64,000 bases of DNA from a virus (Duplodnaviria > Heunggongvirae > Uroviricota > Caudoviricetes), in the IMG/VR virus record IMGVR_UViG_2576861193_000002, one strand, 5' to 3'. The first letter of the stretch is position 1. Every line of letters starts with the position of its first letter. Positions 13,801 to 42,495 of the stretch are shown piece by piece. The notes beneath the pieces were generated by a model. That model saw only the letters and a list, made by a program, of their open reading frames with translations, was not told the DNA's origin and did no database searches. The position numbers and the translations under genes were made by a program.

Positions 13801-15990
13801 TGTTTTGCTAATCGGATACACTGTTGCCTGGAAAACACCAGGAACCCAATTAACGCCGACCGGGGCCGCTGGTGCACCAATAACCAGGTCCACAATACTT
13901 TCCGCACCCTTCATGCCAGTGTCATTACGCCCGCGAATACCAAGCGTGTAGCTGCCAGTATCAAGGCCATAAAACTCATAGCGGTAATTCGTTGTTTCAT
14001 AAGTTGCCACCACGCGGCCTTCGGCGTTATATACGCGTATTTCAAAGGTCAGGCGATGCGTTGTCGTCTGTGTTTCCCATGTAGCGCGACATTGAACAGT
14101 TTCAGAACCAACATTTAACACCTTCAGGTTTTCAATGTTCGGCACGCGGAAGTGATTAAGCGTGTCGTTGTTTACCTCAAAGATTGCGCCTTCATCGACT
14201 ACAGCCTGTTTATGTGGGTCATGCTGTGCTGCCTCGATGGTGTACACGCTGTTGTTTTCAGTTTCTGCTACGCTGATGATTCGGCACAGGACGGGTTTTG
14301 CTGCGTCAGTTGATACAGCAAAAACAGTTCCGTTACGAATCCACGCGGGGGCGGCTGCAAGGGTGATATTGTTTCCGTTAACTCCGGTGATCTGGTGTTT
14401 TTTAAACTTGCCATCACTATCAAGTAAACTAATGGTATCGCCTGCGGCGATGTATTCCGAATCAACCTTATCTACCGTTATCACCTTGCCATTATTCGCC
14501 ACGATACGACCGCCAAAACGAGCGCCTGCGCGGTTATTGTCGAGTATCTCGATAATATCCCCAGGGGTGAAGTGAATTGCGTCGCGGGCCATTTTAAACG
14601 TGAATTTTGATGGTTCGCGTTTTGCTGTTTCTATCAGCCACTTGCCAGCGCGGTATGCCTGCCCGCGTGAAGTGCAACCGAAAGCCTCTAGCGTGGTTTC
14701 GTTATAACCATCGCGGGCGATCAATTCATCATCTGCCACGTATTCTTTTGATTGCTCCCAACCGTTTTCCGGGTCAGTCCATGACACGATAACTGCGTTG
14801 TAAGATTCTGCACGGGCAATACTTGAACGAGTAAACGCGCCATCAACAACGTTAGCATTCGTGATGGTAGCAATTGGATCTTGCGGTGCATCAATCATCA
14901 CCGTAAGGCGCTGCCCATCCCATAACGCGATACCACGGAACATGCCTGCGATATTGTCCAGTAAGTCGCGGGCGCTCATTTGCTCAGTTATGTAAGCATT
15001 AAGCGTCATGCGAGGTTCAAAGCCGCCGTAACCGTCGTTTACCAACTGGTCGCAGTATTGAGAAAGCGTATATAATGCGCCGTCGTCAACATCAATGTAA
15101 CCAGCATGACGTGCAAGCCCGAAACGTTCATTTTTAACCAGATACCGGAATAGCCACGCAGGGTTATTGGTGTACGCTTTTTTAAATCCACCTAGCCATA
15201 AACCTGAATACGTGCGCGTTTCAGGGTTATAGTTGTCAGGCACATCAACAATCAGTCCGCGCAGATGATAGGTGCGGGTAGGTGTATCAGTATACTGGTC
15301 ATGGTCAATTACAGCACCAGCTACAGCGGTATGAGGGTAAGACAGGTTATCGTCGATTATTTCGCTGTAGCTACTCCACCGCGTATCATTACGAAGAAGA
15401 TCGCTTTTGCTGTCTGCTGTTACGCGACGAACGCGAATATCAAACGGCTTTTCATCCGGCGCTTTGATAATGTGAGCTTCCAGATATTCACCGCTTTGTT
15501 TACCGGGACCAATGTGTATACCTTTAACCGGCGACCACGTAGAAGATGATGACGGTTTAACATCAACCACCAACATAACGGATGTATTATATTGATTGCC
15601 CTCATCATCTGACTGAACAAGAGCATCAACGCCAAGATTTAACCTTACGCGGGTAACGTTTGGATCTGAAACAGTCCTTATTATTGGCGTGTCGTGAGTT
15701 ACCTTTGCGTTGACAATAACGGTTGATTCGATGGCATTAAAACCATTAATCGGCGATTGGTCAGCCGTGCCGTTGCGCCAGGCTATACTAATCCCAGGAA
15801 TTGATGTGTTTCCGTTTGCGTCAGTGATAGGCGTGTCATTAAGCATTACGTTGTTTAATGGCGCATTCTGGTTAACTACTCCAAAAATTGGTCCTTCACT
15901 TAGAATATCTAAAACCCGATAAAATTGTTTATGAAACAAATTATCATTAAGCAAAGTTGGTGTTTTTGCTTTACCGCCGCCACTAGACAT
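10807..15990 (-). CDS. central tail fibre / host specificity protein J-like with ~650-aa tandem-repeat coiled-coil insertion
   Basis: 1727 aa; N-terminal ~850 aa resembles lambda J as recalled (YHLRG..V.NYNP.TR.YSG.W.G); aa ~870-1520 are 29-30 aa repeats (SARTQAISDVNASISTLDKKTDASVNRLDQAIADET). Confidence 0.85.
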   Translation of the reverse strand: MSSGGGKAKTPTLLNDNLFHKQFYRVLDILSEGPIFGVVNQNAPLNNVMLNDTPITDANGNTSIPGISIAWRNGTADQSPINGFNAIESTVIVNAKVTHDTPIIRTVSDPNVTRVRLNLGVDALVQSDDEGNQYNTSVMLVVDVKPSSSSTWSPVKGIHIGPGKQSGEYLEAHIIKAPDEKPFDIRVRRVTADSKSDLLRNDTRWSSYSEIIDDNLSYPHTAVAGAVIDHDQYTDTPTRTYHLRGLIVDVPDNYNPETRTYSGLWLGGFKKAYTNNPAWLFRYLVKNERFGLARHAGYIDVDDGALYTLSQYCDQLVNDGYGGFEPRMTLNAYITEQMSARDLLDNIAGMFRGIALWDGQRLTVMIDAPQDPIATITNANVVDGAFTRSSIARAESYNAVIVSWTDPENGWEQSKEYVADDELIARDGYNETTLEAFGCTSRGQAYRAGKWLIETAKREPSKFTFKMARDAIHFTPGDIIEILDNNRAGARFGGRIVANNGKVITVDKVDSEYIAAGDTISLLDSDGKFKKHQITGVNGNNITLAAAPAWIRNGTVFAVSTDAAKPVLCRIISVAETENNSVYTIEAAQHDPHKQAVVDEGAIFEVNNDTLNHFRVPNIENLKVLNVGSETVQCRATWETQTTTHRLTFEIRVYNAEGRVVATYETTNYRYEFYGLDTGSYTLGIRGRNDTGMKGAESIVDLVIGAPAAPVGVNWVPGVFQATVYPISKTTLTTDTAYEFYFAGENQITDPSKVTTSAQFTGRGYQWTFGGMNTGHTYYVYIRTRNAFGVSDFVEASGKPTENFDEISDYVTKDVINSEQFKGMISDIKDLGDRADLIESATNDLKTATDNLKTATDNLTNITDDLRVDTDNLTNITDDLRIDTDGLITETGAIKADTDTLKKETEDLYKKVEENADDIGQHEARIDSLEVSSEKVGSELAQAKASLQNASLALINNSLAQTNTRVTLTAQYKKGRTETKAEIDRIDNVIAEEKKATAESLETITAEMNTMDSNLKGQISNVQRAVADEASARAEAINGVNASISNLDKKTDASVNRLDQAIADETSARTQAISDVNASISTLDKKTDASVKRLDQAIADETSARTEAISGVNTSISTLDGKVTSNINRIDKAIADETKARTDAISSVNASISTLENNTESEVSRLDQAVADETSARTQAISDVNASISNLESKTDASVSRLDKAISDETQARSAAITEVKADLTTLENSTNASVKRLDQAIADESSARAQAISGISAELGTVENNVDKNSDEINQTKASLQNASIALINNSIAQTNTRVTLTAQYKKGRKETNAQIDRIDNVIAEEKKATAEAISSVNASITDLDRKTEASVNRLDRAIADETSARSEAISGVNASVSALDKKTDSRISRLDKAIADETSARTEAISGVNASISTLENNTESEVSRLDQAIADESSARAQAISGVNASISTLDSKVTSNVTRIDKAIADETKARTDAISSLNSSLTSTINSKVSEVSTALSTHEASSAEKFGQISASFDSVNSNITEWSQAMATADEALSSKIDQLTVTVNGNTTAIQTTSKALTDFKGNVDATYSIKLATDNNGMKYATGMSLGLTGSGTNVQSQCIFLVDRFVLMTAANGTYTSPFYTTNDAMYVKEAFIKDGSIGTAKIAQQIQSTVFVQDSKGWMINKDGWAQFNEVTVRGNVIVKGNQNFDVRNSDGRVIINNNGITVNLPSGGKIIIGVW

Positions 15991-16549
15991 ATAGACCCCC
16001 TGTTTCGTGTAATTTCGTGTATCCTGCGCCAGCTTTATTTAGCTCTTCAATCATGAATGACCGCCACGCGACGGCGGCATTAATAGCCATTTCAAGTCCA
16101 CCGCACGCTATAACGCTAAATGATTTACTAACTCTTTTGTCGTTATCAGCGGTGATACGTGCTCTAATAGATCTCCCTTCTGCGTGCCAACATATCCCAA
16201 ATGGCAATCCGCTCTCCCTTGTCGCGCGACCTATGGTCATATTTCTGGCGTTACCTTTTTTATCTGTTACGCGTATGTTATTGAATTTATTATTAAGCCC
16301 ATTACCATCAATGTGATCGATGATCTCACTGCGTTTTAATTTTCTGCCACTGCATAATTCGTAAACAATCCGGTGAGCATAATAGCGACGGCCCTTCCAT
16401 GTGATTTTCCAGTACTTATTGCCGCTTTTTGCCGCTACTATTTTTCCTGCCGCATCGCCAGTCCTCGCCGTTCTGCTGTTAGCGGTGACTTTCCACCTTA
16501 AACATGAAGGAGAATCTTCATCATAAACAAACAATTCAGACCAGTTCAC
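15983..16549 (-). CDS. HNH homing endonuclease with AP2 DNA-binding domain
   Basis: 188 aa; EIIDHIDGNGLNNKFNN HNH motif; inserted between tail genes I and J. Confidence 0.8.
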   Translation of the reverse strand: MNWSELFVYDEDSPSCLRWKVTANSRTARTGDAAGKIVAAKSGNKYWKITWKGRRYYAHRIVYELCSGRKLKRSEIIDHIDGNGLNNKFNNIRVTDKKGNARNMTIGRATRESGLPFGICWHAEGRSIRARITADNDKRVSKSFSVIACGGLEMAINAAVAWRSFMIEELNKAGAGYTKLHETGGLYV

Positions 16550-16561
16550 TGTAACCCCCTA

Positions 16562-17092
16562 TTAACTTACAACGTCTAAGGCGTCTCTGTTGTTACTTGT
16601 ATCTATGCCTAACGATCCGACGTTTGAACCTATTTTCATTTCACCCAACAGGATCGGCACTGGCCTACCCTGGCCTACCTTGTTTTCAATGCTGGTGTAG
16701 GTGTTGTTAGATATGGTGTTATCTTGTGCGCTTTCTGCTGATGTCTTTATCTTCATATTGCGAGACATGAAGATCGAGAACGCAACACTAACAACCGAAA
16801 CACCGATCAAAATCCAGCCTACAACGCCAATTCCTGCAATACCACCTTCCACCACTGGCGCAACAATGACTGTAGTCCCATCCGGGTATTTACTGTTAAC
16901 CGCTGCTGGCGCGGTCTTTTCGTCATAATCTTTCCCGGCAATTCGTAAGCGCAATGGTGTGTTTAAAAACGCCTTCTTGAACTCCTGATTCTGTGCGGTC
17001 AATAAGCCAAGTCCCTGCGCTGGCGTATCAACGTTTAAACACACCTTGCCGTAATATCTTCGAAGATTGCCCGTAAATCTAAATTTGAGCAT
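16562..17092 (-). CDS. tail tip assembly protein I-like
   Basis: 176 aa; position after K-like gene; Gly-rich TM segment; start uncertain (overlaps K). Confidence 0.6.
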   Translation of the reverse strand: MLKFRFTGNLRRYYGKVCLNVDTPAQGLGLLTAQNQEFKKAFLNTPLRLRIAGKDYDEKTAPAAVNSKYPDGTTVIVAPVVEGGIAGIGVVGWILIGVSVVSVAFSIFMSRNMKIKTSAESAQDNTISNNTYTSIENKVGQGRPVPILLGEMKIGSNVGSLGIDTSNNRDALDVVS

Positions 17093-17766
17093 TTGTCAGA
17101 TCTCCATATTGAATGCGTTTGTCTAACATAAGCGGGCCGCATTTGCTCGCGGCGGCTTAATAGTCCGGCATTGTCATGATGCAAAACGGTGTTATCTCCC
17201 AGGTAAATCATCGCGTGACATGGGTCAGCACCCTTAAACGGCTGACGGATAATCACGTCACCCGGCTGAATGCTTTGCGCGTCAACCATGAAAAACCCGT
17301 TCAATGGCAGGTTTTTTATATACAGGTTTTCCCCACGCAGCCACCACCCATCGTGGCGTTCAAAGTCCGGTAGATCCACGCCGCAAAGGTGATAGGCGTC
17401 ACGGAAAAGCGAGTAGCAGTCTGTTTTACCGTGCTCAAATTTACGACCTAACAGGTGAGCTACAGGGCGGAACTTTCTTACCCTGCCACCGGAACATAAA
17501 AACCACGGCAGGCCGGAAATAACTTGCTGTTGTCGATCCCGTGCTGACAATACTAATGAATTGTCAGTATGGGAGTGAAAAACTGCAGTTATAACGCCTA
17601 ATTCGTCAGCTTTGATATAATCGTCAGGCGAGATTTTAAAGCTGTTGTGAGGCGTTTCAGACACGTTTAAGCATGGGTAAAAATAATCGTTATCTATCAC
17701 CAGCCCGCACACCTCCTCTTCCTGGTGGGCTGCTGCATAGCGAATCATTTTATCTTCAAGTGCCAT
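17035..17766 (-). CDS. tail tip assembly protein K-like (NlpC/P60 + JAB/MPN)
   Basis: Internal start MALEDK... of ORF 17035..17862; HSH..D motif and Cys/His peptidase signature. Confidence 0.75.
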   Translation of the reverse strand: MALEDKMIRYAAAHQEEEVCGLVIDNDYFYPCLNVSETPHNSFKISPDDYIKADELGVITAVFHSHTDNSLVLSARDRQQQVISGLPWFLCSGGRVRKFRPVAHLLGRKFEHGKTDCYSLFRDAYHLCGVDLPDFERHDGWWLRGENLYIKNLPLNGFFMVDAQSIQPGDVIIRQPFKGADPCHAMIYLGDNTVLHHDNAGLLSRREQMRPAYVRQTHSIWRSDKCSNLDLRAIFEDITARCV

Positions 17767-17768
17767 AA

Positions 17769-18473
17769 TTAACCCACCTTGCTCGATCCAGGAAAACATG
17801 AAATTGGTAACGGATTCGGGCGCGGAAAACGCAAACGGCAACCGCTTAGGCGGTGGCTGCATTTGTCCATCCTTGGATCGTTGGTTGATTCGTCTTTATC
17901 GGTAGCTACAGGGCCGCCACTATATCCGCAACCGTCGCCGCGATACTGCCACTGGCAAACGTCAGCGAGAATTGTGCGCCCAGGGATAACAGCTTTATCA
18001 GCATCAATTGGCGTTGACAGTTCATATTGCACCTGGTCGGCTGTTTCTTCGCTCATCGCCTCAACGACGTAAAAAGATACAGCCTCAATAGATGGATCTG
18101 CATCTGGGTTGCCGTTGGGGAAGTTGATAGCGTCCAGGTATTTTACTTCCACCTGGCGGCGCGTAACCTTCATTCCTCGAAGGTCGTTAAAATCGTTATT
18201 CATCCCAGTGATTAGCCCGCCAATGTTGGCTACTACCATTTGGGGGCGTGAGTAAACGCCTTCGTTTTTCATTTCGAAGCCAGTCGCCTCGATTGGGTAG
18301 CTGTTGTAGGCCACTCCCTTCCAGATAACCGGGCCGTAATAGCCATTCGCGCCGGAATGGAAGCGGATAATCTCGCCACCCAGGGGCGTGAGGTCTAATT
18401 CAAACAAGTCAATTACCGCACCGACTCCGGCATCCACGGAATCAATAATCATTTCTGTAGGTATGCTGCGCAT
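17769..18473 (-). CDS. minor tail protein L-like
   Basis: 234 aa; CQWQYRGDGCGYSG Cys cluster as in lambda L. Confidence 0.8.
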   Translation of the reverse strand: MRSIPTEMIIDSVDAGVGAVIDLFELDLTPLGGEIIRFHSGANGYYGPVIWKGVAYNSYPIEATGFEMKNEGVYSRPQMVVANIGGLITGMNNDFNDLRGMKVTRRQVEVKYLDAINFPNGNPDADPSIEAVSFYVVEAMSEETADQVQYELSTPIDADKAVIPGRTILADVCQWQYRGDGCGYSGGPVATDKDESTNDPRMDKCSHRLSGCRLRFPRPNPLPISCFPGSSKVG

Positions 18474-18525
18474 TTTATCACCTTGTAATTTGTGATCGAC
18501 GTCACGCTAAATCATACCAAAACGG

Positions 18526-18554
18526 TTGATAGCGCTTTTTACAATATGTATATT
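18526..18554 (+). promoter_or_regulatory. sigma70-like promoter for plus-strand moron cassette
   Basis: TTGATA-17 bp-TATATT; overlaps palindrome TACAATATgtATATTGTA. Confidence 0.4.
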
Positions 18555-18570
18555 GTACTCAAAAGGAAGC

Positions 18571-18756
18571 ATGGTTAACAAAATGGCGCGGAGGTGTGAG
18601 ATGGTTGATAAGGTGTGGAGGTTGAAGGTATTCCTGGCGGATGGCAGGGAAATGACTGTAGCTCTGTATAAGGATGAAGGCGAGGCACTTACTGACGCGC
18701 TTTTACTCGCTGAAGACGAACGCGTTTTGGGGTACAGGATCGAACCCGTCAAATGA
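18571..18756 (+). CDS. moron hypothetical protein
   Basis: Internal Met of ORF 18526..18756; alternative start 18583. Confidence 0.4.
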   Translation: MVNKMARRCEMVDKVWRLKVFLADGREMTVALYKDEGEALTDALLLAEDERVLGYRIEPVK

Positions 18757-18768
18757 GGGTTTAACAAA

Positions 18769-19119
18769 ATGCAAAAATACAGCTTAGATGTGTGGACTGA
18801 TAAATGTGAATGGGAATGCATGGGCCTATTTGACACATATGCTGCGGCGCGTGATGAAGGTCGCGAATTACTTCTCTGTTGGTCTAACGCTCGTGATTTT
18901 GATATTACTCCGGTCCAAGTACCGGATAAGGTGGAAGAGATGAACCCTAAAGATATTGATGTTAGCTTCAATGTTAACTTTGCTGACTCTATGGATCAGT
19001 CTTGCCCTGGTGAAATACACGCAAAAGGTTTCCCCGCTGACGATCCAGAAGCAAAACGCGAATACGAAAAAGCGGCAAAAGATTTCTGTATCGACAATTT
19101 GTCTGCGTTCGATAAATAA
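18769..19119 (+). CDS. moron hypothetical protein (116 aa, acidic)
   Basis: ORF with GAGGG RBS; no recognised domain. Confidence 0.5.
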   Translation: MQKYSLDVWTDKCEWECMGLFDTYAAARDEGRELLLCWSNARDFDITPVQVPDKVEEMNPKDIDVSFNVNFADSMDQSCPGEIHAKGFPADDPEAKREYEKAAKDFCIDNLSAFDK

Positions 19120-19128
19120 GGCGGCAAC

Positions 19129-19377
19129 ATGGGGCGGCGCAATCACGGTGATTATGTGTACACGTTGAAACAGGCCGCCCGCCTCATCGGTTATCATGAG
19201 CACGAATTTATTGATTTGCTGATCGAGCGCGGGATTTTGTATCAGGTTTGTTTAACGCTGTACCCGAAAGCTAAGTACCTACAAGAAAAGTTATTCATCA
19301 TTATGACGGATGAAAACCAGGTCAATCACTCATTCGTCACTGATAAAGGCGTTAATTATCTGCGTGATAACTTATAG
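19129..19377 (+). CDS. moron hypothetical protein, possible HTH
   Basis: 82 aa; YTLKQAARLIGYHEHEFIDLLIERGIL helix-turn-helix-like. Confidence 0.45.
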   Translation: MGRRNHGDYVYTLKQAARLIGYHEHEFIDLLIERGILYQVCLTLYPKAKYLQEKLFIIMTDENQVNHSFVTDKGVNYLRDNL

Positions 19378-19530
19378 GTGACAGATTATAAAATAGAAGT
19401 TTTGGCGCTAATAATAATGGGACTGATAGTATTTGGCGTTCACGCTGTCGATTGGGACTGGGCGGCGATAGCCAATAACATGGCGCACGCTCACCCAATG
19501 AGTTTGATGTACATTAACTACTGACAAGAA

Positions 19531-19560
19531 AAACCCCGCACGAAGCGGGGTTGTTTTTAT
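19531..19560. terminator. bidirectional rho-independent terminator closing moron cassette
   Basis: AAAAACCCCGCacgaaGCGGGGTTGTTTTTAT: GC hairpin with A-run 5' and T-run 3'. Confidence 0.6.
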
Positions 19561-19754
19561 ACATCATCAACCAAAAATAAAACTTCCTTCCCTTCCCTGG
19601 ATCTGCACCCCACGTACCCATCACCCATATCATGTAGATACCAGGTATCGCCATTGTCAGCCTTTACAGTAAGGTCGTTGATCTCGTAGTCGTCAAATAA
19701 TGTAAAAGCGTCAGTTTTGTCCACTACACAAGTCCCGTACATATTAACCCCCAC
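19557..19754 (-). CDS. hypothetical small protein downstream of M
   Basis: 65 aa; start overlaps M stop; stop lies in terminator. Confidence 0.35.
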   Translation of the reverse strand: MGVNMYGTCVVDKTDAFTLFDDYEINDLTVKADNGDTWYLHDMGDGYVGCRSREGKEVLFLVDDV

Positions 19755-20107
19755 TAGCTGACAACTTGCTCAAATGTTGCGTTTAGCGTGTATACAGGCC
19801 CGTCCTTTGTCATACTCCAGCTACGGCAAACAAAAAGCCTTTGCACGCCATCCATAGACGGCGACCAGTAAAAAGCCTCGACAGCGCCGCGCGCCCTCAA
19901 GAATGCTTCTGCCTGGATCGCTACGTTCCCACCATCACCGCATCCTGCACTACTGCCTTTAAAGACCAGGGTGTAGCTATCAAGCAACGTGTTAATCCCT
20001 TTCGCCTGGCGCTGTTCATAACCATCACCAAGTTTAATGACAGATACGTTTGGTTCCCTGGTCACGCTGTAGCTTCTTTGCGGCGTCCATCTGAAAACTT
20101 CTGGCAT
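19754..20107 (-). CDS. minor tail protein M-like
   Basis: 117 aa; C-terminal ...TFEQVVS resembles lambda M ...EFEQVVN as recalled. Confidence 0.75.
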   Translation of the reverse strand: MPEVFRWTPQRSYSVTREPNVSVIKLGDGYEQRQAKGINTLLDSYTLVFKGSSAGCGDGGNVAIQAEAFLRARGAVEAFYWSPSMDGVQRLFVCRSWSMTKDGPVYTLNATFEQVVS

Positions 20108-20140
20108 GATTCCCCCTATAAGTTACATATTGCATACATC

Positions 20141-20181
20141 TTTACGCGCTTCTACGCGAAAAATGAGAAATTCATCACAAG
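20141..20181. repeat. conserved ~40-bp element (copy 1) upstream of M
   Basis: TTTACGCGcttCTACGCGAAAAATgAGAAAtTC; second copy at 32856-32893 upstream of portal. Confidence 0.5.
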
Positions 20182-20276
20182 AATTATAACCAGTTTACAA
20201 AATGGCTTCACATAAGGCGTGACAAGATGTATATAGTAAGCAAGAAGAAAAAGCAGTACCGACAAAGGGGGGCAAT

Positions 20277-20432
20277 ATGGAACGCTATGTGGTTGTGATG
20301 CTGAACAAAGCATTCGAACAGGTGGAAGTTGCGATTGTGAAGGGCTTTGATGATGCATTCAAATACGGTCAATTTATGATGAATGCGAAGGAAAATGAGT
20401 ACCGTGATTTCTTCCTAAAAGTAGTCAACTGA
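20277..20432 (+). CDS. small hypothetical protein (51 aa)
   Basis: AAGGGGGG RBS then ATG; MERYVVVMLNKAFEQ...; coordinates approximate. Confidence 0.3.
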   Translation: MERYVVVMLNKAFEQVEVAIVKGFDDAFKYGQFMMNAKENEYRDFFLKVVN

Positions 20433-20452
20433 TTGATTGCGTGGGGTGAGTT

Positions 20453-20707
20453 ATGAAATTGGTAATGATTGGCAAAAACCTGAAAGCTCAGAAAAACGCG
20501 CCGGAACATGTAGTTAAAAAAGCAAAGGAACTTTTGAACGCGTTTTTAAACAAGAATGCGTCACCCAAAAAATTGAAAGACGGTTACGGCTACGCCTTCC
20601 GCGCCAATTTAGACTGGCGAGTCTATAGCCAGGATCTGAAGGAGTGGGTGATTGTTGAACACCATAAATTCAATGAATTGTCTGGCGTTCGCGGTTGCCA
20701 TAAGTAA
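20453..20707 (+). CDS. hypothetical basic protein (84 aa)
   Basis: GGGGTGAG RBS; MKLVMIGKNLKAQKNAPEHVVKKAKELLNAF... Confidence 0.5.
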   Translation: MKLVMIGKNLKAQKNAPEHVVKKAKELLNAFLNKNASPKKLKDGYGYAFRANLDWRVYSQDLKEWVIVEHHKFNELSGVRGCHK

Positions 20708-20794
20708 GGCGGGATATGGATGACGATAAATTCACCCGGCGGGAGATCTGGAATATTTAGTTGGTGATTTTCGTGAGGGGATATATCTCGCGGA

Positions 20795-21754
20795 ATGGTC
20801 GGATATAAAATGGGTGTGATTATGGCGCGAAAAATGACACATGAAGAACATATTGCAGATATAGCAAATGTCAATCCTCGTGTTGATATTTTAGGAGAAA
20901 TTACAGGCTGCAATGATAAGGTGTCGTGTCGTTGCAGAGTTTGTAACCACAAATGGCGTACTACGCCGCACAGCCTTAAGGCTGGCAGGGGCTGCCCCGA
21001 ATGTAAAAGAACAAAGATAGCACGAATAAAACAACTATCACATAACGATCATGTTGCTGCAATTGCTAATGTTAATCCATTTGTTGAAGTGCTAGAAAAA
21101 ATTGTTAATGTAAAGAAAAAGATCGCATGTCGTTGTAATAATTGCAAAAACATATGGATGACTACGCCAAATGATCTCAAAAACGGTCACGGCTGTCCGA
21201 AATGCTCTGGCGTAGCGAAGCTGTCACATGAAGAGCAGATTGCAGCTATTGCGAAAGTTAACCAAAATGTTGATGTAATAGGCAATATTGTTAATGACAA
21301 AACAAAAGTATCATGCCGCTGCAAGGCTTGCGGTCATGTGTGGTCGGCTACGCCTAACGACCTTAAAAATGGGCGCGGCTGCCCGAAATGCGCGAAACGA
21401 GGGTTTTTATCCCACGAACACGGAAAACTTTACATCATGGTTGATGATCTTGAAGTGCCAACAATGATGAAAATCGGCGTGAGCGTTAAGGAGAACGAGC
21501 GAAGAAATAAAGTATTAAAAAGCGCACATAAAGCAGGTGTCAGAATCCCTGATTTGTATGTCGTGAAAACGTGGGTGGGGCCAACTGAAAAAGTACAAGA
21601 ATTAGAAAGCACGATGCATAAGGCTTTTAGCAATTATAAAATTAACTTCCCTGTAAAATTTGATGGCAGTAATGAATTTTTCTACTACAGGCCGGAAGTA
21701 TTCAGCATGGTAGAAAGTACATACAGTGATATTGTAAATAAAAATGCGGCATGA
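20795..21754 (+). CDS. triple zinc-ribbon + T5orf172 (GIY-YIG-like) domain protein
   Basis: Three ~57-aa repeats each with CRCxxC...GxGCPxC; C-terminus GKLYIMV..MKIGVS..ERRNKVL...ESTMHKAF...NEFF matches T5orf172 pattern. Confidence 0.6.
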   Translation: MVGYKMGVIMARKMTHEEHIADIANVNPRVDILGEITGCNDKVSCRCRVCNHKWRTTPHSLKAGRGCPECKRTKIARIKQLSHNDHVAAIANVNPFVEVLEKIVNVKKKIACRCNNCKNIWMTTPNDLKNGHGCPKCSGVAKLSHEEQIAAIAKVNQNVDVIGNIVNDKTKVSCRCKACGHVWSATPNDLKNGRGCPKCAKRGFLSHEHGKLYIMVDDLEVPTMMKIGVSVKENERRNKVLKSAHKAGVRIPDLYVVKTWVGPTEKVQELESTMHKAFSNYKINFPVKFDGSNEFFYYRPEVFSMVESTYSDIVNKNAA

Positions 21755-21794
21755 ATATTCAGCCCACCACCATTAGTGACGGGCTTATTCTTAG

Positions 21795-24002: not shown

Positions 24003-24010
24003 GATTGCTA

Positions 24011-24080
24011 CTCCAGTTTTGTGATCTGTGTCTCTATTTTATACAAAATGGCTTTACTTCAGCGACTCCATTTTGTATAA
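24011..24080 (+). promoter_or_regulatory. regulatory region with perfect 12-bp inverted repeat TATACAAAATGG-N16-CCATTTTGTATA
   Basis: Upstream of plus-strand lipoprotein moron; TTTTGTGATCTGTGT box shared with 9518-9535. Confidence 0.45.
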
Positions 24081-24319
24081 GGAAGCCATAGGGAACAGTT
24101 AAGAAATCAAACAAAAACGAGGTGAATTATGAAAAGTTTAATCAACAAAATTCTGGTGGTTGCCATTGCTCTTGCAATCTGTGTGCACATGACCGTGCTT
24201 TACTGGCAAGCTCCAAATGCAATGCTCATGATGCAGATCGCAGGTCAAAAGGCGTTCATCCCTGGCTGGGGTGCGCTGGATGCTTTAATCCGCTGGTTTA
24301 TGGCTTAAAGGTGCTAATT

Positions 24320-24694
24320 ATGAAAAACGTATTAAAAGCCGCGCTGATTGGTGTTATTGCTCTGTCGCTCGCTGGGTGTGCAAGATCAACTGATTTTGTT
24401 AGGTTGGCTGATAATAAGTTGCAGGCTGGAATGACTTGCGAGCAGGTTACTAAAATCATGGGTGAGCCTCAAAGGATTGAGTATGACGGTAAGTACAGCT
24501 ATCACGTATGGTGGTCGGTAACAAGTACGGTAGGTTTTACATACATGGATGTTGAAGAGTTATCCCCTTCAAGGGTTATAGCGAAGTTTGATAATTGTAT
24601 TCTGAAAGAATGGAAAGATCGCAGCAAGGCGAAGACTGTATATGGCACAATTACTCACAGCTCACCAGGCGCTGCCGTCAAAGATTTCAATTAA
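24320..24694 (+). CDS. moron lipoprotein, possibly BamE/SmpA-OmlA-like fold
   Basis: Internal Met of ORF 24122..24694: MKNVLKAALIGVIALSLAGC lipobox; GMTCEQVTKIMGEP motif. Confidence 0.55.
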   Translation: MKNVLKAALIGVIALSLAGCARSTDFVRLADNKLQAGMTCEQVTKIMGEPQRIEYDGKYSYHVWWSVTSTVGFTYMDVEELSPSRVIAKFDNCILKEWKDRSKAKTVYGTITHSSPGAAVKDFN

Positions 24695-24700
24695 AGAAAG

Positions 24701-24727
24701 GCCCGGCTAATTCCGGGCTTTTTGTTC
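24701..24727 (+). terminator. rho-independent terminator after lipoprotein moron
   Basis: GCCCGGctaattCCGGGC + TTTTTGTTCTTT. Confidence 0.55.
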
Positions 24728-25399
24728 TTTGGATTTTTTTAGTCTTTCCAGCACCTCCATAGCCTCCCTCATTCCATCGTCATAAGCCTTTTTATCAAGC
24801 AATACATTTGGTCGTTTTTGTTTGTTTCTTGCTTCTTGCGGCGTTTTGGCGCGTACTGCGGCCCTGTATCCGGTCATTGTCATGCCCCATGCTTCTGATT
24901 CAGATAGCCCCAGGTGAGCAACGGCGGAGTAAACATATTCAAGGATGTCGAATGTTGGCTTGTACTCGCCTTCCTGGGTTGTGACCGTGTCTTCTTCTGG
25001 ACCGTCACCAATTAAACCGTGATACATACAGTGTTGCGCCAGTGTGATAACGTCGCTGGTGGGCATCAACCCAGGTTTTAGTCTCAACTTACCCGAAGGA
25101 GTGAAGCTGCATTCGCCCAATAACGGGCCTATTTCGTCCTCTGAGCAACATTTCAGGACGTGGATGGACGTTTGCACTAACTCACCATAACAACGCGCCA
25201 TAATGCGATTGCGGAGGTCTGGATCCGTTGGCAAACGCTGTGGGTATTTACCACCGTGCACAGTTGCGAAGTATTCAACTAATTCCCTGTCACTGCCGAC
25301 CTTAGCCATTGCAGCAAAGCAGGGGTTAAACACATACCGCCTGCCATCAACCACAACCGCAAATTGTCCTGTTCGAACATGGATCATAACTGTCACCAT
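24707..25399 (-). CDS. tail assembly chaperone (G/GT-like)
   Basis: 230 aa; position between major tail and tape measure genes; basic C-terminus. Confidence 0.5.
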   Translation of the reverse strand: MVTVMIHVRTGQFAVVVDGRRYVFNPCFAAMAKVGSDRELVEYFATVHGGKYPQRLPTDPDLRNRIMARCYGELVQTSIHVLKCCSEDEIGPLLGECSFTPSGKLRLKPGLMPTSDVITLAQHCMYHGLIGDGPEEDTVTTQEGEYKPTFDILEYVYSAVAHLGLSESEAWGMTMTGYRAAVRAKTPQEARNKQKRPNVLLDKKAYDDGMREAMEVLERLKKSKEQKARN

Positions 25400-25440
25400 A
25401 AAATAAAGGGGCCAAATGGCCCCGATGTTAATATTTACTG

Positions 25441-25917: not shown

Positions 25918-25929
25918 GTTTGTTACCTC

Positions 25930-27178: not shown

Positions 27179-27335
27179 TTTTCGGATGGGTTTTCGCCAC
27201 GCGCGGGCAAAGAATCACCCATTCTCCAGCGTCATTAAGATATGCCGCCACCTGTCGCCCGGTATCAGTCTGCACCCATACGCGGGTAAACAGTTTTGGT
27301 AATAGCGGATCCGGTAATGTCAGGTCATTCCACAT
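27150..27335 (-). CDS. small head-tail connector-region protein
   Basis: 61 aa ORF between adaptor genes. Confidence 0.35.
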   Translation of the reverse strand: MWNDLTLPDPLLPKLFTRVWVQTDTGRQVAAYLNDAGEWVILCPRVAKTHPKIVKWSYGYE

Positions 27336-27337
27336 TG

Positions 27338-27724: not shown

Positions 27725-27744
27725 TTTGTTTTCTCCACATACAA

Positions 27745-28842: not shown

Positions 28843-28859
28843 GTTTTTCCCCTTTTAAA

Positions 28860-29282: not shown

Positions 29283-29298
29283 TGTGATCCCCTTTTAA

Positions 29299-38951: not shown

Positions 38952-39150
38952 TCAACATTTCTTCTTCCAGGTTAGCCGGACGTTTACGAAATACCCCGGC
39001 AAAAACCAGATCGTCGAGTAGGTCTTCACGCTTAAATAACCACTCTTTCATTATCACCCCGTCGTCACTGCGATACACGACGCCGTTTTTAAGAAAATAA
39101 AAAGTACTGGTGTTTGTCTGGAGGTATAGATCTTCGTAAACGTCCATGAT
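38899..39150 (-). CDS. hypothetical protein (Q-lysis island)
   Basis: Internal start MDVYEDLYLQ... of ORF 38899..39273. Confidence 0.4.
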   Translation of the reverse strand: MMDVYEDLYLQTNTSTFYFLKNGVVYRSDDGVIMKEWLFKREDLLDDLVFAGVFRKRPANLEEEMLIEVFQNENQGKLFPGER

Positions 39151-39151
39151 G

Positions 39152-39394
39152 TTAACCCTCGACCACTTCCAGCCCGCGCCCCTTGTCGCCAACGAAGTCG
39201 CCCAGGCTGAACGTATACGACCACGCCGGATTAATGTAGTGATCATCAGCGCCAGCGGCAATGAGGTCAGCACCGTTAATCATGCAAGTGACATTATCAC
39301 TATGAACGACGTCAACCACCTTACCAACAACCTGTTTCAATGACGGGTATCCGTGATCGTGCAAAAATTTGACTTTCATTAATCTGTCTCCCAA
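39152..39394 (-). CDS. hypothetical protein (Q-lysis island)
   Basis: 80 aa ORF. Confidence 0.4.
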   Translation of the reverse strand: MGDRLMKVKFLHDHGYPSLKQVVGKVVDVVHSDNVTCMINGADLIAAGADDHYINPAWSYTFSLGDFVGDKGRGLEVVEG

Positions 39395-39654
39395 CGTTCA
39401 ATACTGATTAAAAAATCCCGGATAGCGTGGCGCTCGTCGCGCGTTGGTTTGCGTTTCCGGTAGATCATGAAATCGAACCATGCTTTTTCCTGCTCAAAAT
39501 CCAGGTCGTAAGCAAGCGCCTCAATGTATCCGCATTCGTGATACTGGTACGCCACGCCAGCACGAACAAAAAAGCGGGTTTTATCCCGCTTGTGCTCATA
39601 GATACGCATATTTACCCCGTTATGCAGTTGTGTAGCTGTCAACCAGCTTTTCAT
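39379..39654 (-). CDS. hypothetical protein (Q-lysis island)
   Basis: 91 aa ORF. Confidence 0.4.
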   Translation of the reverse strand: MKSWLTATQLHNGVNMRIYEHKRDKTRFFVRAGVAYQYHECGYIEALAYDLDFEQEKAWFDFMIYRKRKPTRDERHAIRDFLISIERWETD

Positions 39655-39850
39655 CTTTCATTCTGGCAAGCTGTGCGATGTTCATCGTGTAGCCGCCATC
39701 AGAGAAAAGCAATTCGGCCGCAGCGCGACGAAAAGCAATATCATCATGGTTACGTGTCCATGTAGCGATCACAACGCGTTTCCCGTTAGTGGCGAACATA
39801 GACAATTCATTATCAACAACGTCGATAGCCTGCCAGATTTTTAATTCCAT
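39620..39850 (-). CDS. hypothetical protein (Q-lysis island)
   Basis: 76 aa ORF. Confidence 0.4.
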   Translation of the reverse strand: MELKIWQAIDVVDNELSMFATNGKRVVIATWTRNHDDIAFRRAAAELLFSDGGYTMNIAQLARMKDEKLVDSYTTA

Positions 39851-40206
39851 GATTTATCCCCGTAGATCTTGAATAGTTCGCGTTCTTCCAGATCTTCAAA
39901 TATCCCTATGTGCAGGTCACGCAGGCGGCGCATTGTGCGGAATCGTGGCCTGAACTCCTGGCTGCGTTTAATATACTTGCCACCAATTGAATAGATATGG
40001 CCGTATGAGTACCATCTATTCCCCACCCATATTTCATATTCCTTGCCTTCGTAATTGAATTTTATCGTTAGCTCGCCGACTTCAACTATTAACCCTTTGT
40101 CAATAATGTCATTGAGCATTTCGTCCCATTCTTTGAGGAATGGTTGTTGATAAAAACCAAAAAGCGTATTCACAGCATGGCAGAGGTAATCAATGATTAT
40201 TTGCAT
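39841..40206 (-). CDS. hypothetical protein (Q-lysis island)
   Basis: 121 aa ORF. Confidence 0.45.
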   Translation of the reverse strand: MQIIIDYLCHAVNTLFGFYQQPFLKEWDEMLNDIIDKGLIVEVGELTIKFNYEGKEYEIWVGNRWYSYGHIYSIGGKYIKRSQEFRPRFRTMRRLRDLHIGIFEDLEERELFKIYGDKSWN

Positions 40207-40210
40207 ATTG

Positions 40211-40423
40211 TCACCACATCATATAATAAACGTTCTCGTCAGCTAACATGTCAGCTACATCCTGCGTCATATGTCTGGCATTAAGGAAATAGTCATCACT
40301 ATGCCATTCCCTTACAAGCATGCGCGCCCATTTACGGCGCTGGCGCTTATTGCGTCGCAGATCATCAAAAGCCTTTAATGCTTTGTCATATGCCCTTACA
40401 AGGCGCTTACGGTTACTTTTCAT
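40211..40423 (-). CDS. hypothetical basic protein (Q-lysis island)
   Basis: Internal start of ORF 40211..40459; Arg/Lys-rich. Confidence 0.4.
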   Translation of the reverse strand: MKSNRKRLVRAYDKALKAFDDLRRNKRQRRKWARMLVREWHSDDYFLNARHMTQDVADMLADENVYYMMW

Positions 40424-40685
40424 CGCTATGATCCTGTAAACAGTCGTTATAGCCTTCAATGTATCCGGTTAATCCTGTATTACTTACTGACCATTCAGCC
40501 GAACGGCGTTTGATGGCCTTGTCCATAGTCATTTTGTCGCCTGGTCCGCCTGGCTCAATGTATTTTCTTAAATCCCTTGCTATCCACGCCCTTAATTGTT
40601 GCGTATCACCGCACAACCGCGCGGATAATGTCAGGTCATTAACCAGTTTTGCAAATAGATGTTCCTTTAATTTAGGCTTCATCAT
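40413..40685 (-). CDS. hypothetical protein translationally coupled to Q
   Basis: 90 aa; start overlaps Q stop. Confidence 0.45.
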   Translation of the reverse strand: MMKPKLKEHLFAKLVNDLTLSARLCGDTQQLRAWIARDLRKYIEPGGPGDKMTMDKAIKRRSAEWSVSNTGLTGYIEGYNDCLQDHSDEK

Positions 40686-41404
40686 TCACCCCGCGTCACT
40701 CGTTTAATTTCGTTGTCAGCCCGCGCCTCTTCTTTGAACAATTCGGCAATGGCGTCTTCATAGAAAGCCCGGTATTTCTTCCACCATGTTGATCGGCTTA
40801 CTGGAAAAACAAGCTGATTAACCGCCTGCCGAACAAGATCTACTGGGAAACGCGAGTACCCGCGCCCGCCGCAGTGCTGGCACGTTTTGAATACTGGCAT
40901 TTCCGCAGCTTCACTGGCTGCTTTATCCGGTACTTCGCCACGGCCCTTGCACTGTTTACAATGATTGAGAACTTTTCCATGCCCCTTGCATTTTTTGCAA
41001 AGGTGTTTTTCTCCGTAGTCGTCAAACGTAAATTTATATCCGCCGCACTCCATACAAGTTTTTTCCGTAGCGGCACTCTGGCAATAATCCCGAAACGCGA
41101 AAACGGCGACAAGAATAATGAGATCATTGCGTTGTGCCTCGTCCAGTTCCATAACGTATTTATAGTCTTTTGCCATAGCCTTTAAACGCTCTATAAGCAA
41201 AACTACGGCCTTATGTTTTTCGGCTTGTGATAGTTCCATCTTTCCCAGAAAAGCGCTATAACCAAGCTCTACGCGCGATTGCGCCATACCTGCGGCAGTT
41301 AGTGCATCCGTGGTATTAAGCGCATCCGGGGATGTGCCACGGCTTTCATCTGACAAACGCGGTGATTTTGGGAAGTGGAATTTAAGAATAGATTCCAGAT
41401 TCAT
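40682..41404 (-). CDS. antitermination protein Q (zinc-binding, 82/21-type)
   Basis: 240 aa; CxxC clusters (CMECGG, CKKCKGHG, CKQCKGRG, CQHCGGRG). Confidence 0.8.
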   Translation of the reverse strand: MNLESILKFHFPKSPRLSDESRGTSPDALNTTDALTAAGMAQSRVELGYSAFLGKMELSQAEKHKAVVLLIERLKAMAKDYKYVMELDEAQRNDLIILVAVFAFRDYCQSAATEKTCMECGGYKFTFDDYGEKHLCKKCKGHGKVLNHCKQCKGRGEVPDKAASEAAEMPVFKTCQHCGGRGYSRFPVDLVRQAVNQLVFPVSRSTWWKKYRAFYEDAIAELFKEEARADNEIKRVTRGE

Positions 41405-41586
41405 TATTTGCCCCCGTAACGAGCAATAAGGCGTTTACGATCAGAAATAGACTGGACTAACTTCCTCTCAAGCTCTTTCAATGCAAGCAATTCGCGCATA
41501 TGAAAAGCCTGGATTTGTCGGACTGTAGCTAAATCATGCTCGTCGCGCTGAATATCTATTTGCAGATCTTTAATTTCGTTTTTCAT
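41404..41586 (-). CDS. small coiled-coil hypothetical protein
   Basis: 60 aa ORF between rusA and Q. Confidence 0.4.
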   Translation of the reverse strand: MKNEIKDLQIDIQRDEHDLATVRQIQAFHMRELLALKELERKLVQSISDRKRLIARYGGK

Positions 41587-41990
41587 TGCTCACCCCACAT
41601 ATTCGTCGCGTATTCGTCAATATCCGGTAGCAGATCTCCGTGTTCGCGGATCTTAATAAACAAGCGTCCGCCTTTTACCTTCCGGCAGCGAACAATTTTT
41701 ATCGAGTCGATTTGCCCGTCATCCTCCCAGAATCCGGCATAAGTAAGGCTATCAAAAAGGCATTTAGGGATATTATCCAGATCTCTGATCCGGTTATCCG
41801 GCGGCGCGGCATAAATGGCGATTGCCAGTCGGCAAGGCAGGTTAATATTTAAATTTAATAGCTCGATGATGTCTCTTACTTGTTCCCTGTATTCTTTTCC
41901 AACCTTGCTGATATGGTGAAAACCTCGCGAATGTCGGTAATAGCGGTTATTCGATGGCGGGTAAGGTAGGCTAAATGTATATTCGTTCAT
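41583..41990 (-). CDS. rusA: Holliday junction resolvase RusA
   Basis: Internal start MNEYTFSLPYPPSNNRYYRHSRG...; RusA family signature. Confidence 0.8.
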   Translation of the reverse strand: MNEYTFSLPYPPSNNRYYRHSRGFHHISKVGKEYREQVRDIIELLNLNINLPCRLAIAIYAAPPDNRIRDLDNIPKCLFDSLTYAGFWEDDGQIDSIKIVRCRKVKGGRLFIKIREHGDLLPDIDEYATNMWGEQ

Positions 41991-42003
41991 GCTGCCTTTC
42001 TCC

Positions 42004-42480
42004 TTACTTCCCGTGATTTGGATGAAAACCATATTTAATTTCAGCTTCTTGTCTCGCTTTGATTGCGTCCTCCATTCTGTCGAATCTGCCTAAACTAATA
42101 CATTTATAATTTACCCAAATTTGCGAATGCCATTTCTTGCGCTCTTTATCCCAATAAACACCAATATAACCACTGGTATTGTTTTTGTTTTTTGGTCTAT
42201 TCTTCGCGTTCTCCTTGCCTAACACCAATCTAAAATTATTAAGCCTGTTATTGCTAGGGTCGTGATCCAAATGGTCTATCTCGTACCCTTCCTGGATCGG
42301 GCCGTTGTGCATTTCCCAAATAATACGGTGAGCTTTATACCATCTACCAAAAAGCCTAACGCGTATGCGACCAGTATCATTTGGACACCCAGCAATACTA
42401 CCGGCTTTCATTCTACCGCGTGACTTTTTCCATATCAGGTTAATACCATCGTAACAAAACCATTCGTGCCAGTTCATCAT
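42004..42480 (-). CDS. HNH homing endonuclease with AP2 domain
   Basis: EIDHLDHDPSNNRLNNFRLV; inserted between ninG and rusA. Confidence 0.8.
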   Translation of the reverse strand: MMNWHEWFCYDGINLIWKKSRGRMKAGSIAGCPNDTGRIRVRLFGRWYKAHRIIWEMHNGPIQEGYEIDHLDHDPSNNRLNNFRLVLGKENAKNRPKNKNNTSGYIGVYWDKERKKWHSQIWVNYKCISLGRFDRMEDAIKARQEAEIKYGFHPNHGK

Positions 42481-42495
42481 GCAATACACCCCCAA

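What the first reader, a model, noticed from the sequence alone, without database searches (positions are those of the whole stretch)
15983..42495. Three free-standing HNH-AP2 homing endonuclease paralogs at three module junctions of one prophage
Near-identical architectures (HNH motif DH.D..NN...N plus AP2 domain) sit between tail genes I and J (15983..16549), between endolysin and Rz (36642..37163), and between ninG and rusA (42004..42480). Each is wedged between conserved genes with overlapping or abutting stops and starts, as expected for mobile homing insertions. Three copies plus a degenerate fourth in one prophage is unusual.
Basis: partly seen in the sequence, partly recalled or inferred. 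Interest (0 to 1): 0.6.

Follow-up and report, generated by a model that had tools for sequence, protein, structure and literature searches.

The report
Three homing endonuclease genes in prophage
An E. coli prophage of the mEp021 group carries three separately acquired selfish HNH-AP2 "homing endonuclease" genes slotted between essential phage genes, which is a clear but ordinary example of a well-known kind of mobile gene.

Summary
Three intact ORFs lie between tail genes I/J (H1, 15983..16549), endolysin/Rz (H2, 36642..37163) and NinG/RusA (H3, 42004..42480). Each has a significant HNH_3 domain with the catalytic D-H…N…N motif and an AP2-like C-terminus. A fourth, catalytically dead module sits inside a 693-aa ORF (53679..55760).

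The homing interpretation is well supported by comparison with relatives:
- All three genes are present or absent among close relatives, with clean junctions.
- H1 is 99.5–100% identical in nucleotides across eight other phages and prophages whose flanking genes are 84–95% identical. The first ~110 nt of J next to it look co-converted.
- The H1 and H2 lineages keep the same junction across several genera.
- The NinG/RusA junction holds three different HNH-AP2 genes in different E. coli prophages.
- dN/dS is below 1 for all three.

The three are not recent paralogs. They are about 30% identical and were acquired independently. Multi-copy carriage is common in phages (about 3,000 of 50,697 phage records have homologues, up to 5 per genome). 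However, having all three of these sites filled is rare within this phage group.

HNH-AP2 free-standing homing endonucleases are a described family, and H1 is already annotated in mEp021. Cleavage and homing were not tested. Verdict: new members of a known kind, low-to-moderate interest.

The parts
15983..16549 (-). H1: HNH-AP2 free-standing endonuclease gene (188 aa) between tail assembly I (16562..17092) and host-specificity J (10807..15990). Its stop overlaps the J start.
   Evidence: ORF. HNH_3 E = 1.6e-9. phrog_99. AF2 model and fold hits to I-HmuI and AP2. Annotated 'putative HNH endonuclease' in mEp021.
15986..16557 (-). Site-1 insert block (572 bp). It replaces the 13-14 nt I-J spacer of empty alleles and carries its own RBS (TAGGGGGTTACAGTG) plus a new RBS for J (CAGGGGGTCTATATG).
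   Evidence: blastn breakpoints against mEp044. Junction sequences.
15880..15990 (-). First ~110 nt of J. It is nearly invariant among HNH-occupied alleles and carries 14 fixed, mostly synonymous, differences from all 8 empty alleles. Inferred to be a co-conversion tract and a candidate cleavage-resistant target flank.
   Evidence: within-class diversity of occupied alleles is 0-0.014, and divergence from empty alleles is 0.22-0.42.
36642..37163 (-). H2: HNH-AP2 endonuclease gene (173 aa) between endolysin and Rz. Its start overlaps the endolysin stop, its stop overlaps the Rz start, and its C-terminus ...CEGGTWTR* mimics the endolysin C-terminus ...CEWGEKWTR* of empty alleles.
37153..37644 (-). 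Endolysin allele linked to H2. It matches mEp021 at about 97% nt up to codon ~9 (breakpoint about 37620) and then at only about 55% nt (56% aa). It is shared by other H2-carrying prophages (100% and 75% aa). Together with H2 it forms a ~910-bp non-homologous block (36670..37579).
   Evidence: Phage_lysozyme Pfam hit.
42004..42480 (-). H3: HNH-AP2 endonuclease gene (158 aa; alternative TTG start at 42495) between NinG (42496..43110) and RusA (41583..41990).
   Evidence: (HNH_3 E = 2.4e-18; AP2 E = 2.9e-7).
42007..42518 (-). Site-3 insert block (~512 bp) relative to the empty NinG/RusA ATGA overlap. The NinG C-terminus is rebuilt (…LRKERAQCA*), TAAGGA is repeated at both ends, and the original TAAGGAGAAAGGCAGC is retained ahead of rusA.
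53949..54392 (+). Degenerate fourth HNH-AP2 module (aa ~91-238 of the 693-aa ORF 53679..55760). The catalytic His and Asn residues are lost, and the module is fused to a long coiled-coil C-terminal region in the early/replication operon.
   Evidence: HMM hit E = 7e-19. HNH_3 E = 1.3e-9 and partial AP2. Sequence. Both relatives that cover the motif also lack the His.

Best explanation
The window holds an E. coli prophage of the mEp021 ('mEpimmI') group. The prophage has independently acquired three free-standing homing endonuclease genes (HEGs) of the HNH(N)-AP2 family, which is I-HmuI-like (Pfam HNH_3, phrog_99).

Proposed mechanism (inferred, not shown): each protein uses its C-terminal AP2 domain, plus an N-terminal beta-rich region, to recognise a specific sequence at or near the matching junction of HEG-less relatives. 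Its beta-beta-alpha-metal HNH site then nicks or cuts that DNA. This would happen when two related phage genomes replicate in one cell, through co-infection or induction of a polylysogen. Recombinational repair from the HEG-carrying genome then copies the HEG and some adjacent sequence into the cut genome.

Each cassette is built to be harmless. It sits exactly between two genes of an operon. It brings its own ribosome-binding site and recreates the RBS or start overlap of the downstream gene. It is therefore transcribed with the tail (H1), lysis (H2) and nin (H3) genes.

Shown here: the domain architecture, the intact catalytic motif, precise presence/absence with clean junctions, very recent spread of H1 across diverged backbones with an adjacent co-converted J segment, junction-specific lineages for H1 and H2, repeated independent invasion of the NinG/RusA junction, and purifying selection.

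Inferred: actual cleavage, the target sequences, and the homing event itself.

The fourth module is an inactivated relative, either decayed or co-opted as a DNA-binding domain.
For: - Architecture: HNH_3 in all three and phrog_99. The catalytic columns are invariant across 26 relatives. The H1 model has pLDDT 88.5. Its top Foldseek hit is I-HmuI 1U3E (E = 9e-4, prob 0.99), followed by AP2 hits (3IGM target-normalised TM 0.50; Toxoplasma mitoribosomal chains at prob 0.98-1.0).
- Presence/absence: site 1 is occupied in 2 of 7 related phages and 0 of 33 related prophages in complete E. coli genomes. Site 2 is occupied in 0 of 7 and 0 of 35. Site 3 holds the same gene in 0 of 7 phages and 3 of 35 prophages (clonal STEC strains).
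- Clean junctions with recreated RBS and overlaps.
- Recent lateral spread: H1 is 99.5-100% nt identical in eight other loci whose L, K, I and J genes are 84-95% identical. Synonymous codon differences are 0-3 of 189 in H1, against 19-39 of 177 in I and 37-54 of 200 in J.
- Co-conversion signature: the first ~110 nt of J are invariant among occupied alleles, with 14 fixed differences from 8 empty alleles. There are no fixed differences in the 3' end of I.
- Site specificity: H1 relatives at 71%, 55% and 48% identity (E. coli, Salmonella, Cronobacter) all lie between I and J. H2 relatives at 84%, 72%, 59% and 56% (E. coli, Yersinia, Morganella phage) all lie between lysozyme and spanin.
- Independent invasions: three different HNH-AP2 genes (47-52% aa identity) occupy the NinG/RusA junction.
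- Purifying selection: dN/dS is <=0.04, 0.24 and 0.33.
- Composition: the inserts have slightly lower GC than their neighbours.
- Literature: HNH-AP2 is a described HEG family with multi-copy carriage and degeneration (PMC2248197). HEGs sit at exchange boundaries, and distinct HEGs can share a locus (PMC10448857).
Against: - No cleavage or homing was tested, and bioinformatics alone cannot show that a given nuclease gene actively homes (a point also made in PMC10448857).
- The H1 loci were retrieved by exact protein identity, which biases the sample towards identical genes. The synonymous-site comparison reduces this bias but does not remove it.
- At site 2 the HNH gene moved together with about 430 bp of a foreign endolysin allele. 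Ordinary mosaic recombination could produce that without any nuclease.
- In one relative (L030) the endolysin is 99.6% nt identical to the window while the HNH gene is only 85%. This is the opposite of the site-1 pattern and is unexplained.
- H3 shows no excess conservation over its flanks in the only close comparison (97.9% against 94.9-97.7%).
- AP2 is below Pfam's cut-off in all three proteins.
Confidence: 0.8

Rival explanations
1. Passive cargo. The HNH genes are moron-like inserts that spread only by ordinary homologous or illegitimate recombination at gene boundaries, which is standard phage mosaicism. Their nuclease activity would give no drive.
For: Site 2 is a 910-bp mosaic block that includes most of a foreign endolysin gene. 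Other variable non-HEG morons lie in the same phage group, for example in the region between the tape-measure gene and gpM. H3 shows no excess conservation over its flanks.
Against: H1 is essentially identical across backbones that are 5-16% diverged, with a sharply bounded tract. Passive mosaicism does not predict such a sweep of one small gene. Lineages keep the same junction across genera and different phage types. The same junction was hit repeatedly by different members of one nuclease family. The catalytic motif is conserved and dN/dS is below 1.
Confidence: 0.1
2. Domesticated nucleases with a role for the phage. One possibility is exclusion of competing related phages, that is, cutting rival genomes, with marker exclusion as the selected trait. 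Another is a role in DNA processing. Homing would then be a by-product.
For: There is purifying selection. The genes sit in late and nin operons and so should be expressed during lytic growth. The literature notes HEG domestication, and HK97-type HNH proteins work with terminase (PMC10448857 discussion).
Against: The genes are absent from most close relatives, so they are not needed for the phage life cycle. None lies next to the terminase (34392..34877 and 32911..34395), unlike HK97-type packaging HNH genes. Exclusion of rivals by cutting them is mechanistically the same act as homing, so this is more a difference of emphasis than a separate mechanism.
Confidence: 0.07
3. Inactive relics. The genes were homing endonucleases, are now fixed at their sites, and have lost activity while they decay (the late stage of the HEG life cycle).
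For: The fourth module shows that such decay happens in this genome. Degeneration after insertion is described for HNH-AP2 genes (PMC2248197).
Against: The ORFs are full length, the catalytic residues are invariant, dN/dS is 0.04-0.33, and H1 shows signs of very recent spread.
Confidence: 0.03

Closest known systems
HNH(N)-AP2 free-standing homing endonucleases of phages (Magnani et al. 2004 family; examples in Xanthomonas phages Xp10/OP1/Xop411, T1, Rtp, T5; 'IPA-HNH' of ICP1)
   Same: They share an N-terminal HNH_3/HNN nuclease without zinc-binding Cys dyads and a C-terminal AP2 DNA-binding domain. They are free-standing ORFs between genes, occur in several copies per genome, vary in presence among relatives, and are accompanied by degenerate copies (PMC2248197; PMC10448857).
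   Different: These sit in a temperate E. coli prophage, whereas most documented cases are virulent phages. For the Xanthomonas phages the authors inferred sequence-independent, scattered insertion. Here the H1 and H2 lineages are strictly tied to one junction across genera.
I-HmuI (SPO1 intron-encoded HNH homing endonuclease, PDB 1U3E)
   Same: It is the best structural match to the H1 model and the best solved-structure sequence match for H1 and H3 in the HNH region. It belongs to the same HNH_3 class. From published work on I-HmuI, it acts as a site-specific nicking enzyme.
   Different: I-HmuI is encoded in a group I intron and uses a helix-turn-helix C-terminal domain. The genes here are free-standing (Rfam found no intron) and have an AP2-like C-terminus. 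Sequence similarity is weak (E = 0.006-0.03).
T4 free-standing HEGs (Seg and Mob families) and intronless homing / marker exclusion
   Same: They are free-standing nuclease genes placed between essential genes. They spread to HEG-less relatives during co-infection with co-conversion of flanking markers. The J 5' tract at site 1 fits this pattern.
   Different: Seg proteins are GIY-YIG enzymes, and Mob proteins are HNH with zinc-finger DNA-binding domains rather than AP2. Homing of the genes here has not been demonstrated.
HK97-type terminase-associated HNH endonucleases
   Same: They are small phage HNH proteins in the late region.
   Different: Those are conserved next to the terminase and cos site and are needed for packaging. 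The three genes here are not next to the terminase and are absent from most close relatives.

Membership tests
HNH-AP2 free-standing homing endonucleases (Pfam HNH_3 + AP2; phrog_99) | HNH_3 beta-beta-alpha-metal nuclease domain with catalytic His and conserved Asn residues | tested here: met
   HNH_3 is above the Pfam cut-off in H1, H2 and H3 (37.7, 52.0 and 65.9 bits against 24.8). D78, H79, N87, N91, N100 and N103 are invariant in 26 sequences. The feature is NOT met by the fourth module, where the His and Asn residues are replaced.
HNH-AP2 free-standing homing endonucleases (Pfam HNH_3 + AP2; phrog_99) | C-terminal AP2 DNA-binding domain (three-stranded sheet plus helix) | tested here: inconclusive
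   All three are below Pfam's cut-off: H3 31.1 bits against 33.3 (E = 2.9e-7), H2 E = 0.086, H1 no hit. Supporting evidence: close relatives have precomputed PF00847. The H1 model shows strands 119-122, 127-133 and 139-145 plus helix 152-172. Foldseek hits the AP2 domain 3IGM (target-normalised TM 0.50, prob 0.44) and Toxoplasma mitoribosomal chains (prob 0.98-1.0), which I take to be ApiAP2-type from my own knowledge, since the tool output does not label them. The domain is likely present but not proven by a curated threshold.
HNH-AP2 free-standing homing endonucleases (Pfam HNH_3 + AP2; phrog_99) | Free-standing ORF between genes, not inside an intron or intein | tested here: met
   Each ORF lies between two complete genes. 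Rfam finds no group I or II intron in the window.
HNH-AP2 free-standing homing endonucleases (Pfam HNH_3 + AP2; phrog_99) | Sporadic presence/absence among closely related genomes at a precise site | tested here: met
HNH-AP2 free-standing homing endonucleases (Pfam HNH_3 + AP2; phrog_99) | Evidence of lateral spread with co-conversion of flanking sequence | tested here: met
   Met for H1 only: 99.5-100% nt identity against 84-95% in the flanks, and a J 5' tract with 14 fixed differences from empty alleles. For H2 a linked endolysin allele is compatible with this but ambiguous. No such signal is available for H3.
HNH-AP2 free-standing homing endonucleases (Pfam HNH_3 + AP2; phrog_99) | Site-specific cleavage or nicking of the HEG-less allele and nuclease-dependent homing | not testable with these tools
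   This needs enzyme assays and phage crosses.
HK97-type packaging HNH endonucleases | Conserved position next to terminase/cos and presence in all members of the phage group | tested here: not met
   The terminase genes are at 32911..34877. None of the three HNH genes adjoins them, and all three are missing from most relatives.
Intron- or intein-encoded HNH endonucleases (I-HmuI type) | Location inside a self-splicing intron or in frame within a host protein | tested here: not met
   There is no intron RNA family hit, and the flanking genes are intact and separate.

The most novel reading that the evidence does not exclude
In temperate enterobacterial phages, distinct HNH-AP2 lineages may each 'own' one gene junction (I|J, endolysin|spanin, NinG|RusA). 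They may also be a main cause of the mosaic breakpoints seen there. This would extend the 'nucleases occupy boundaries of genetic exchange' idea from virulent phages to lambda-like prophages. The mEp021 x mEp044 pair in E. coli K-12 would make a ready experimental system. Separately, the catalytically dead fourth module fused to a coiled-coil protein could be a co-opted sequence-specific DNA-binding regulator.
Probability: 0.35. Interest if true: 0.45.

Novelty: new member of a known kind. Interest (0 to 1): 0.3.

Why it matters
The finding adds little that is conceptually new. HNH-AP2 homing endonuclease genes, their multi-copy carriage and their decay are all described.

Its value is as a clean natural example in a genetically tractable temperate coliphage group. 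One gene (H1) appears to have swept very recently through diverged backbones and carried about 110 nt of the J gene with it. A second (H2) is linked to a foreign endolysin allele. One junction (NinG/RusA) has been invaded at least three times.

This gives defined occupied and empty allele pairs (mEp021 or mEp515 against mEp044, mEp013, mEp010 or mEp554). These pairs could be used to test homing, to map target sites, and to ask how far such genes shape prophage mosaicism.

For annotation, it warns that the divergent endolysin and the 5' end of J in such prophages may be hitch-hiking segments.

Tried and rejected
- I looked for further HNH copies by phmmer and hmmsearch against six-frame ORFs of the window. 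Only the three genes and the fused fourth module were found.
- I considered a GCC-box-like GGCGGC motif as a shared AP2 target. It occurs at the J start and upstream of rusA. At site 3, however, GGCGGC and GGCAGC both occur among empty alleles, so no inference was drawn.
- I considered the packaging-HNH role and rejected it on position and on absence from relatives.
- I considered intron or intein encoding. Rfam gave no hit and the flanking genes are intact.
- The promoter scan around sites 2 and 3 gave no more sites than shuffled sequence (16 found against 15.6 expected). Terminator-like sites were modestly above the shuffled mean (13 against 8.1), and none was linked to the inserts, so no independent transcription units are claimed.
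- The PDB sequence search hit for H1 to the designed repeat protein 7ONG is a summed-repeat artefact and was ignored.
- The mEpimmI genome paper was searched for HNH and homing and does not mention them.
- Two literature searches for earlier descriptions of HEGs at these specific junctions found nothing specific.


Full report
**What is there.** The window is E. coli DNA. Its left flank (Rac remnant, ttcA, dbpA) is 100% identical to complete E. coli genomes. The exact H2 and H3 proteins occur on contig AYKC01000020.1 of GCA_000511525.1. From about 7.0 to 62.8 kb lies a prophage related at 84-94% nucleotide identity to phage mEp021 and its relatives mEp515, mEp044, mEp013, mEp010, mEp554 and MagusPhagus. 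This is the Nus-dependent non-lambdoid 'mEpimmI' group (PMC11893012).

- H1, 15983..16549, lies between tail assembly I and host-specificity J.
- H2, 36642..37163, lies between the endolysin and Rz.
- H3, 42004..42480, lies between NinG and RusA.

The neighbours were confirmed by Pfam and by the annotation of relatives.

**Domain content.** All three proteins have a significant Pfam HNH_3 domain and fall in phrog_99 'HNH endonuclease'. The catalytic D-H…N…N columns are invariant in an alignment of 26 relatives.

The AP2 domain is below Pfam's cut-off in all three. H3 scores 31.1 bits against 33.3, H2 has E = 0.086, and H1 has no hit. It is supported in other ways. Close relatives of H1 and H2 carry precomputed AP2 hits. 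The AlphaFold model of H1 (pLDDT 88.5) ends in three strands and a long helix. Foldseek returns I-HmuI (1U3E) as the best match, followed by AP2 hits: the Plasmodium AP2 domain 3IGM and Toxoplasma mitoribosomal chains that I take to be ApiAP2-type.

The three proteins are only 28-37% identical to one another. They share an architecture, not a recent origin.

**The fourth copy.** A profile of the three proteins finds one more match, in residues ~91-238 of a 693-aa ORF on the plus strand (53679..55760). Its nuclease motif is destroyed: 'IKNDN…TK' stands where the others have 'IDH.D…NN'. It is fused to a long coiled-coil region. It has only five relatives in 5.8 billion proteins, and the named ones are from E. 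coli. Both relatives that cover the motif also lack the catalytic His.

**Presence and absence.**
- Site 1: mEp021 and mEp515 carry H1. Five other related phages do not, and neither do any of 33 related prophages in complete E. coli genomes.
- Site 2: none of 7 phages and none of 35 prophages carries H2.
- Site 3: none of 7 phages carries H3. Three clonal STEC genomes carry the same gene (97% aa). Two other genomes carry different HNH-AP2 genes (47% and 52% aa) at the same junction. Thirty are empty.

**Junctions.**
- Site 1: a 572-bp block replaces the 13-14 nt I-J spacer. It brings an RBS for H1 and a new RBS for J.
- Site 2: the H2 start overlaps the endolysin stop. The H2 C-terminus (…CEGGTWTR*) copies the endolysin C-terminus of empty alleles (…CEWGEKWTR*), which preserves the overlap with the Rz start.
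- Site 3: the NinG C-terminus is rebuilt and the original sequence ahead of rusA is kept. The three different HNH genes found at this junction were inserted at slightly different points within about 20 nt.

Rfam finds no intron in the window. Promoter-like sites around sites 2 and 3 are no more frequent than in shuffled sequence. The genes are therefore probably read through with their operons.

**Evidence for recent lateral spread (H1).** The exact H1 protein is listed in 38 index blocks. In every place shown it sits between I and J. Across eight such loci the H1 gene is 99.5-100% identical in nucleotides to the window, while L, K, I and J are 84-95% identical.

These loci were retrieved by protein identity, so I also compared synonymous changes only. 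There are 0-3 of 189 codons in H1, against 19-39 of 177 in I and 37-54 of 200 in J.

The low-variation tract runs from about 27 nt upstream of H1 to about 90-110 nt into J. I then compared 9 occupied alleles with 8 empty ones. The 3' end of I has no fixed differences. The first 107 nt of J has 14, mostly synonymous, and occupied alleles are nearly invariant there. This asymmetric tract is what co-conversion during homing, or selection for a cleavage-resistant target, would leave.

**Junction-specific lineages.** H1 relatives at 71% (E. coli), 55% (Salmonella) and 48% (Cronobacter) identity all lie between I and J. H2 relatives at 84% and 72% (E. coli), 59% (Yersinia, in a different phage type) and 56% (Morganella phage) all lie directly after a phage lysozyme gene. 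A spanin-type gene (Rz or DUF2570) follows in the E. coli and Yersinia loci, and an unannotated ORF follows in the Morganella phage.

At site 2 the endolysin allele travels with the HNH gene. The window endolysin matches mEp021 at about 97% nt up to codon ~9 and then at only about 55% nt (56% aa). HNH-carrying relatives have the window-type endolysin at 100% and 75% aa.

One oddity remains. In relative L030 the endolysin is 99.6% nt identical to the window, but the HNH gene is only 85%.

**Selection and composition.** dN/dS is ≤0.04 for H1 against its 71% relative, 0.24 for H2 and 0.33 for H3. The genes are therefore maintained and are not decaying. All three are slightly AT-richer than their neighbours.

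**How common is this.** tblastn finds homologues of H2 or H3 in about 3,000 of 50,697 phage records. There are up to 5 places per genome, and many are already annotated 'homing endonuclease' or 'AP2 domain protein'. mEp515 has three places.

Other members of the group carry HNH genes at further sites: in the region between the tape-measure gene and gpM, and upstream of NinG. The literature describes HNH(N)-AP2 as a family of free-standing homing endonucleases. Xanthomonas phages carry 6-8 copies, T1, Rtp and T5 carry several, and the genes degenerate after insertion (PMC2248197). HEGs also sit at boundaries of genetic exchange, and distinct HEGs can share one locus (PMC10448857).

So several copies in one phage is not unusual in general. 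Occupancy of all three of these junctions in one prophage is rare within the mEp group.

**Conclusion.** The best explanation is three independently acquired, junction-specific, free-standing HNH-AP2 homing endonuclease genes plus one dead derivative (confidence about 0.8). The architecture, the polymorphism, the H1 sweep, the J tract, the lineage-to-site fidelity and purifying selection are shown here. Cleavage, target sequences and homing are inferred.

The rival explanations are less likely but are not excluded without experiments. They are passive mosaic cargo, domesticated competition nucleases and inactive relics.

This is a new member of a known kind. H1 is already annotated as a putative HNH endonuclease in mEp021, although the group's genome paper does not discuss it.

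Noticed in passing
window 20795..21754 (+): A 319-aa ORF has three CapR/DUF4379 zinc-finger repeats and a T5orf172 (GIY-YIG-type) nuclease domain. This is the other class of putative phage homing endonuclease. It lies on the opposite strand between the tape-measure gene and gpM. At the same region mEp021 has split CapR and T5orf172 ORFs, while mEp515 and another prophage have HNH_3 genes.
   Followed up: partly
window 53679..55760 (+): This 693-aa early-region ORF fuses a catalytically dead HNH-AP2 module to a long coiled coil. It has only five relatives in the 5.8-billion-protein collection, and the named ones are from E. coli. It may be a co-opted DNA-binding protein. Relatives of the phage group have unrelated sequence at this position.
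   Followed up: partly
L030:2020-3019 versus window 36642..37644: In one related prophage the endolysin is 99.6% nt identical to the window, but the adjacent HNH gene is only 85% identical. This is the reverse of the site-1 pattern. It may reflect turnover of HNH alleles within a fixed endolysin background, and it is unexplained.
   Followed up: no
L016:704-1192, L017:661-1188, L018:1922-2398 and 3420-3947: Three different HNH-AP2 genes occupy the NinG/RusA junction in different E. coli prophages. They were inserted at slightly different points. The STEC308 prophage has yet another HNH gene upstream of NinG.
   Followed up: yes
window 10807..15990 (-): The J tail-tip protein (1727 aa) contains a long run of coiled-coil-like repeats (…VNASISTLD…ADETSAR…). 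Its length varies from 1393 to 1820 aa among relatives.
   Followed up: no
window 1..6900 and 61570..64000: The prophage lies between zntB (CorA family, 5851..6834) and a PAS-GGDEF gene (63023..63952), with its integrase at 61570..62784. The left flank holds a Rac prophage remnant (recT, xisR, intR) with the RalA antitoxin sRNA (1150..1328) and the FnrS sRNA (5638..5755).
   Followed up: partly
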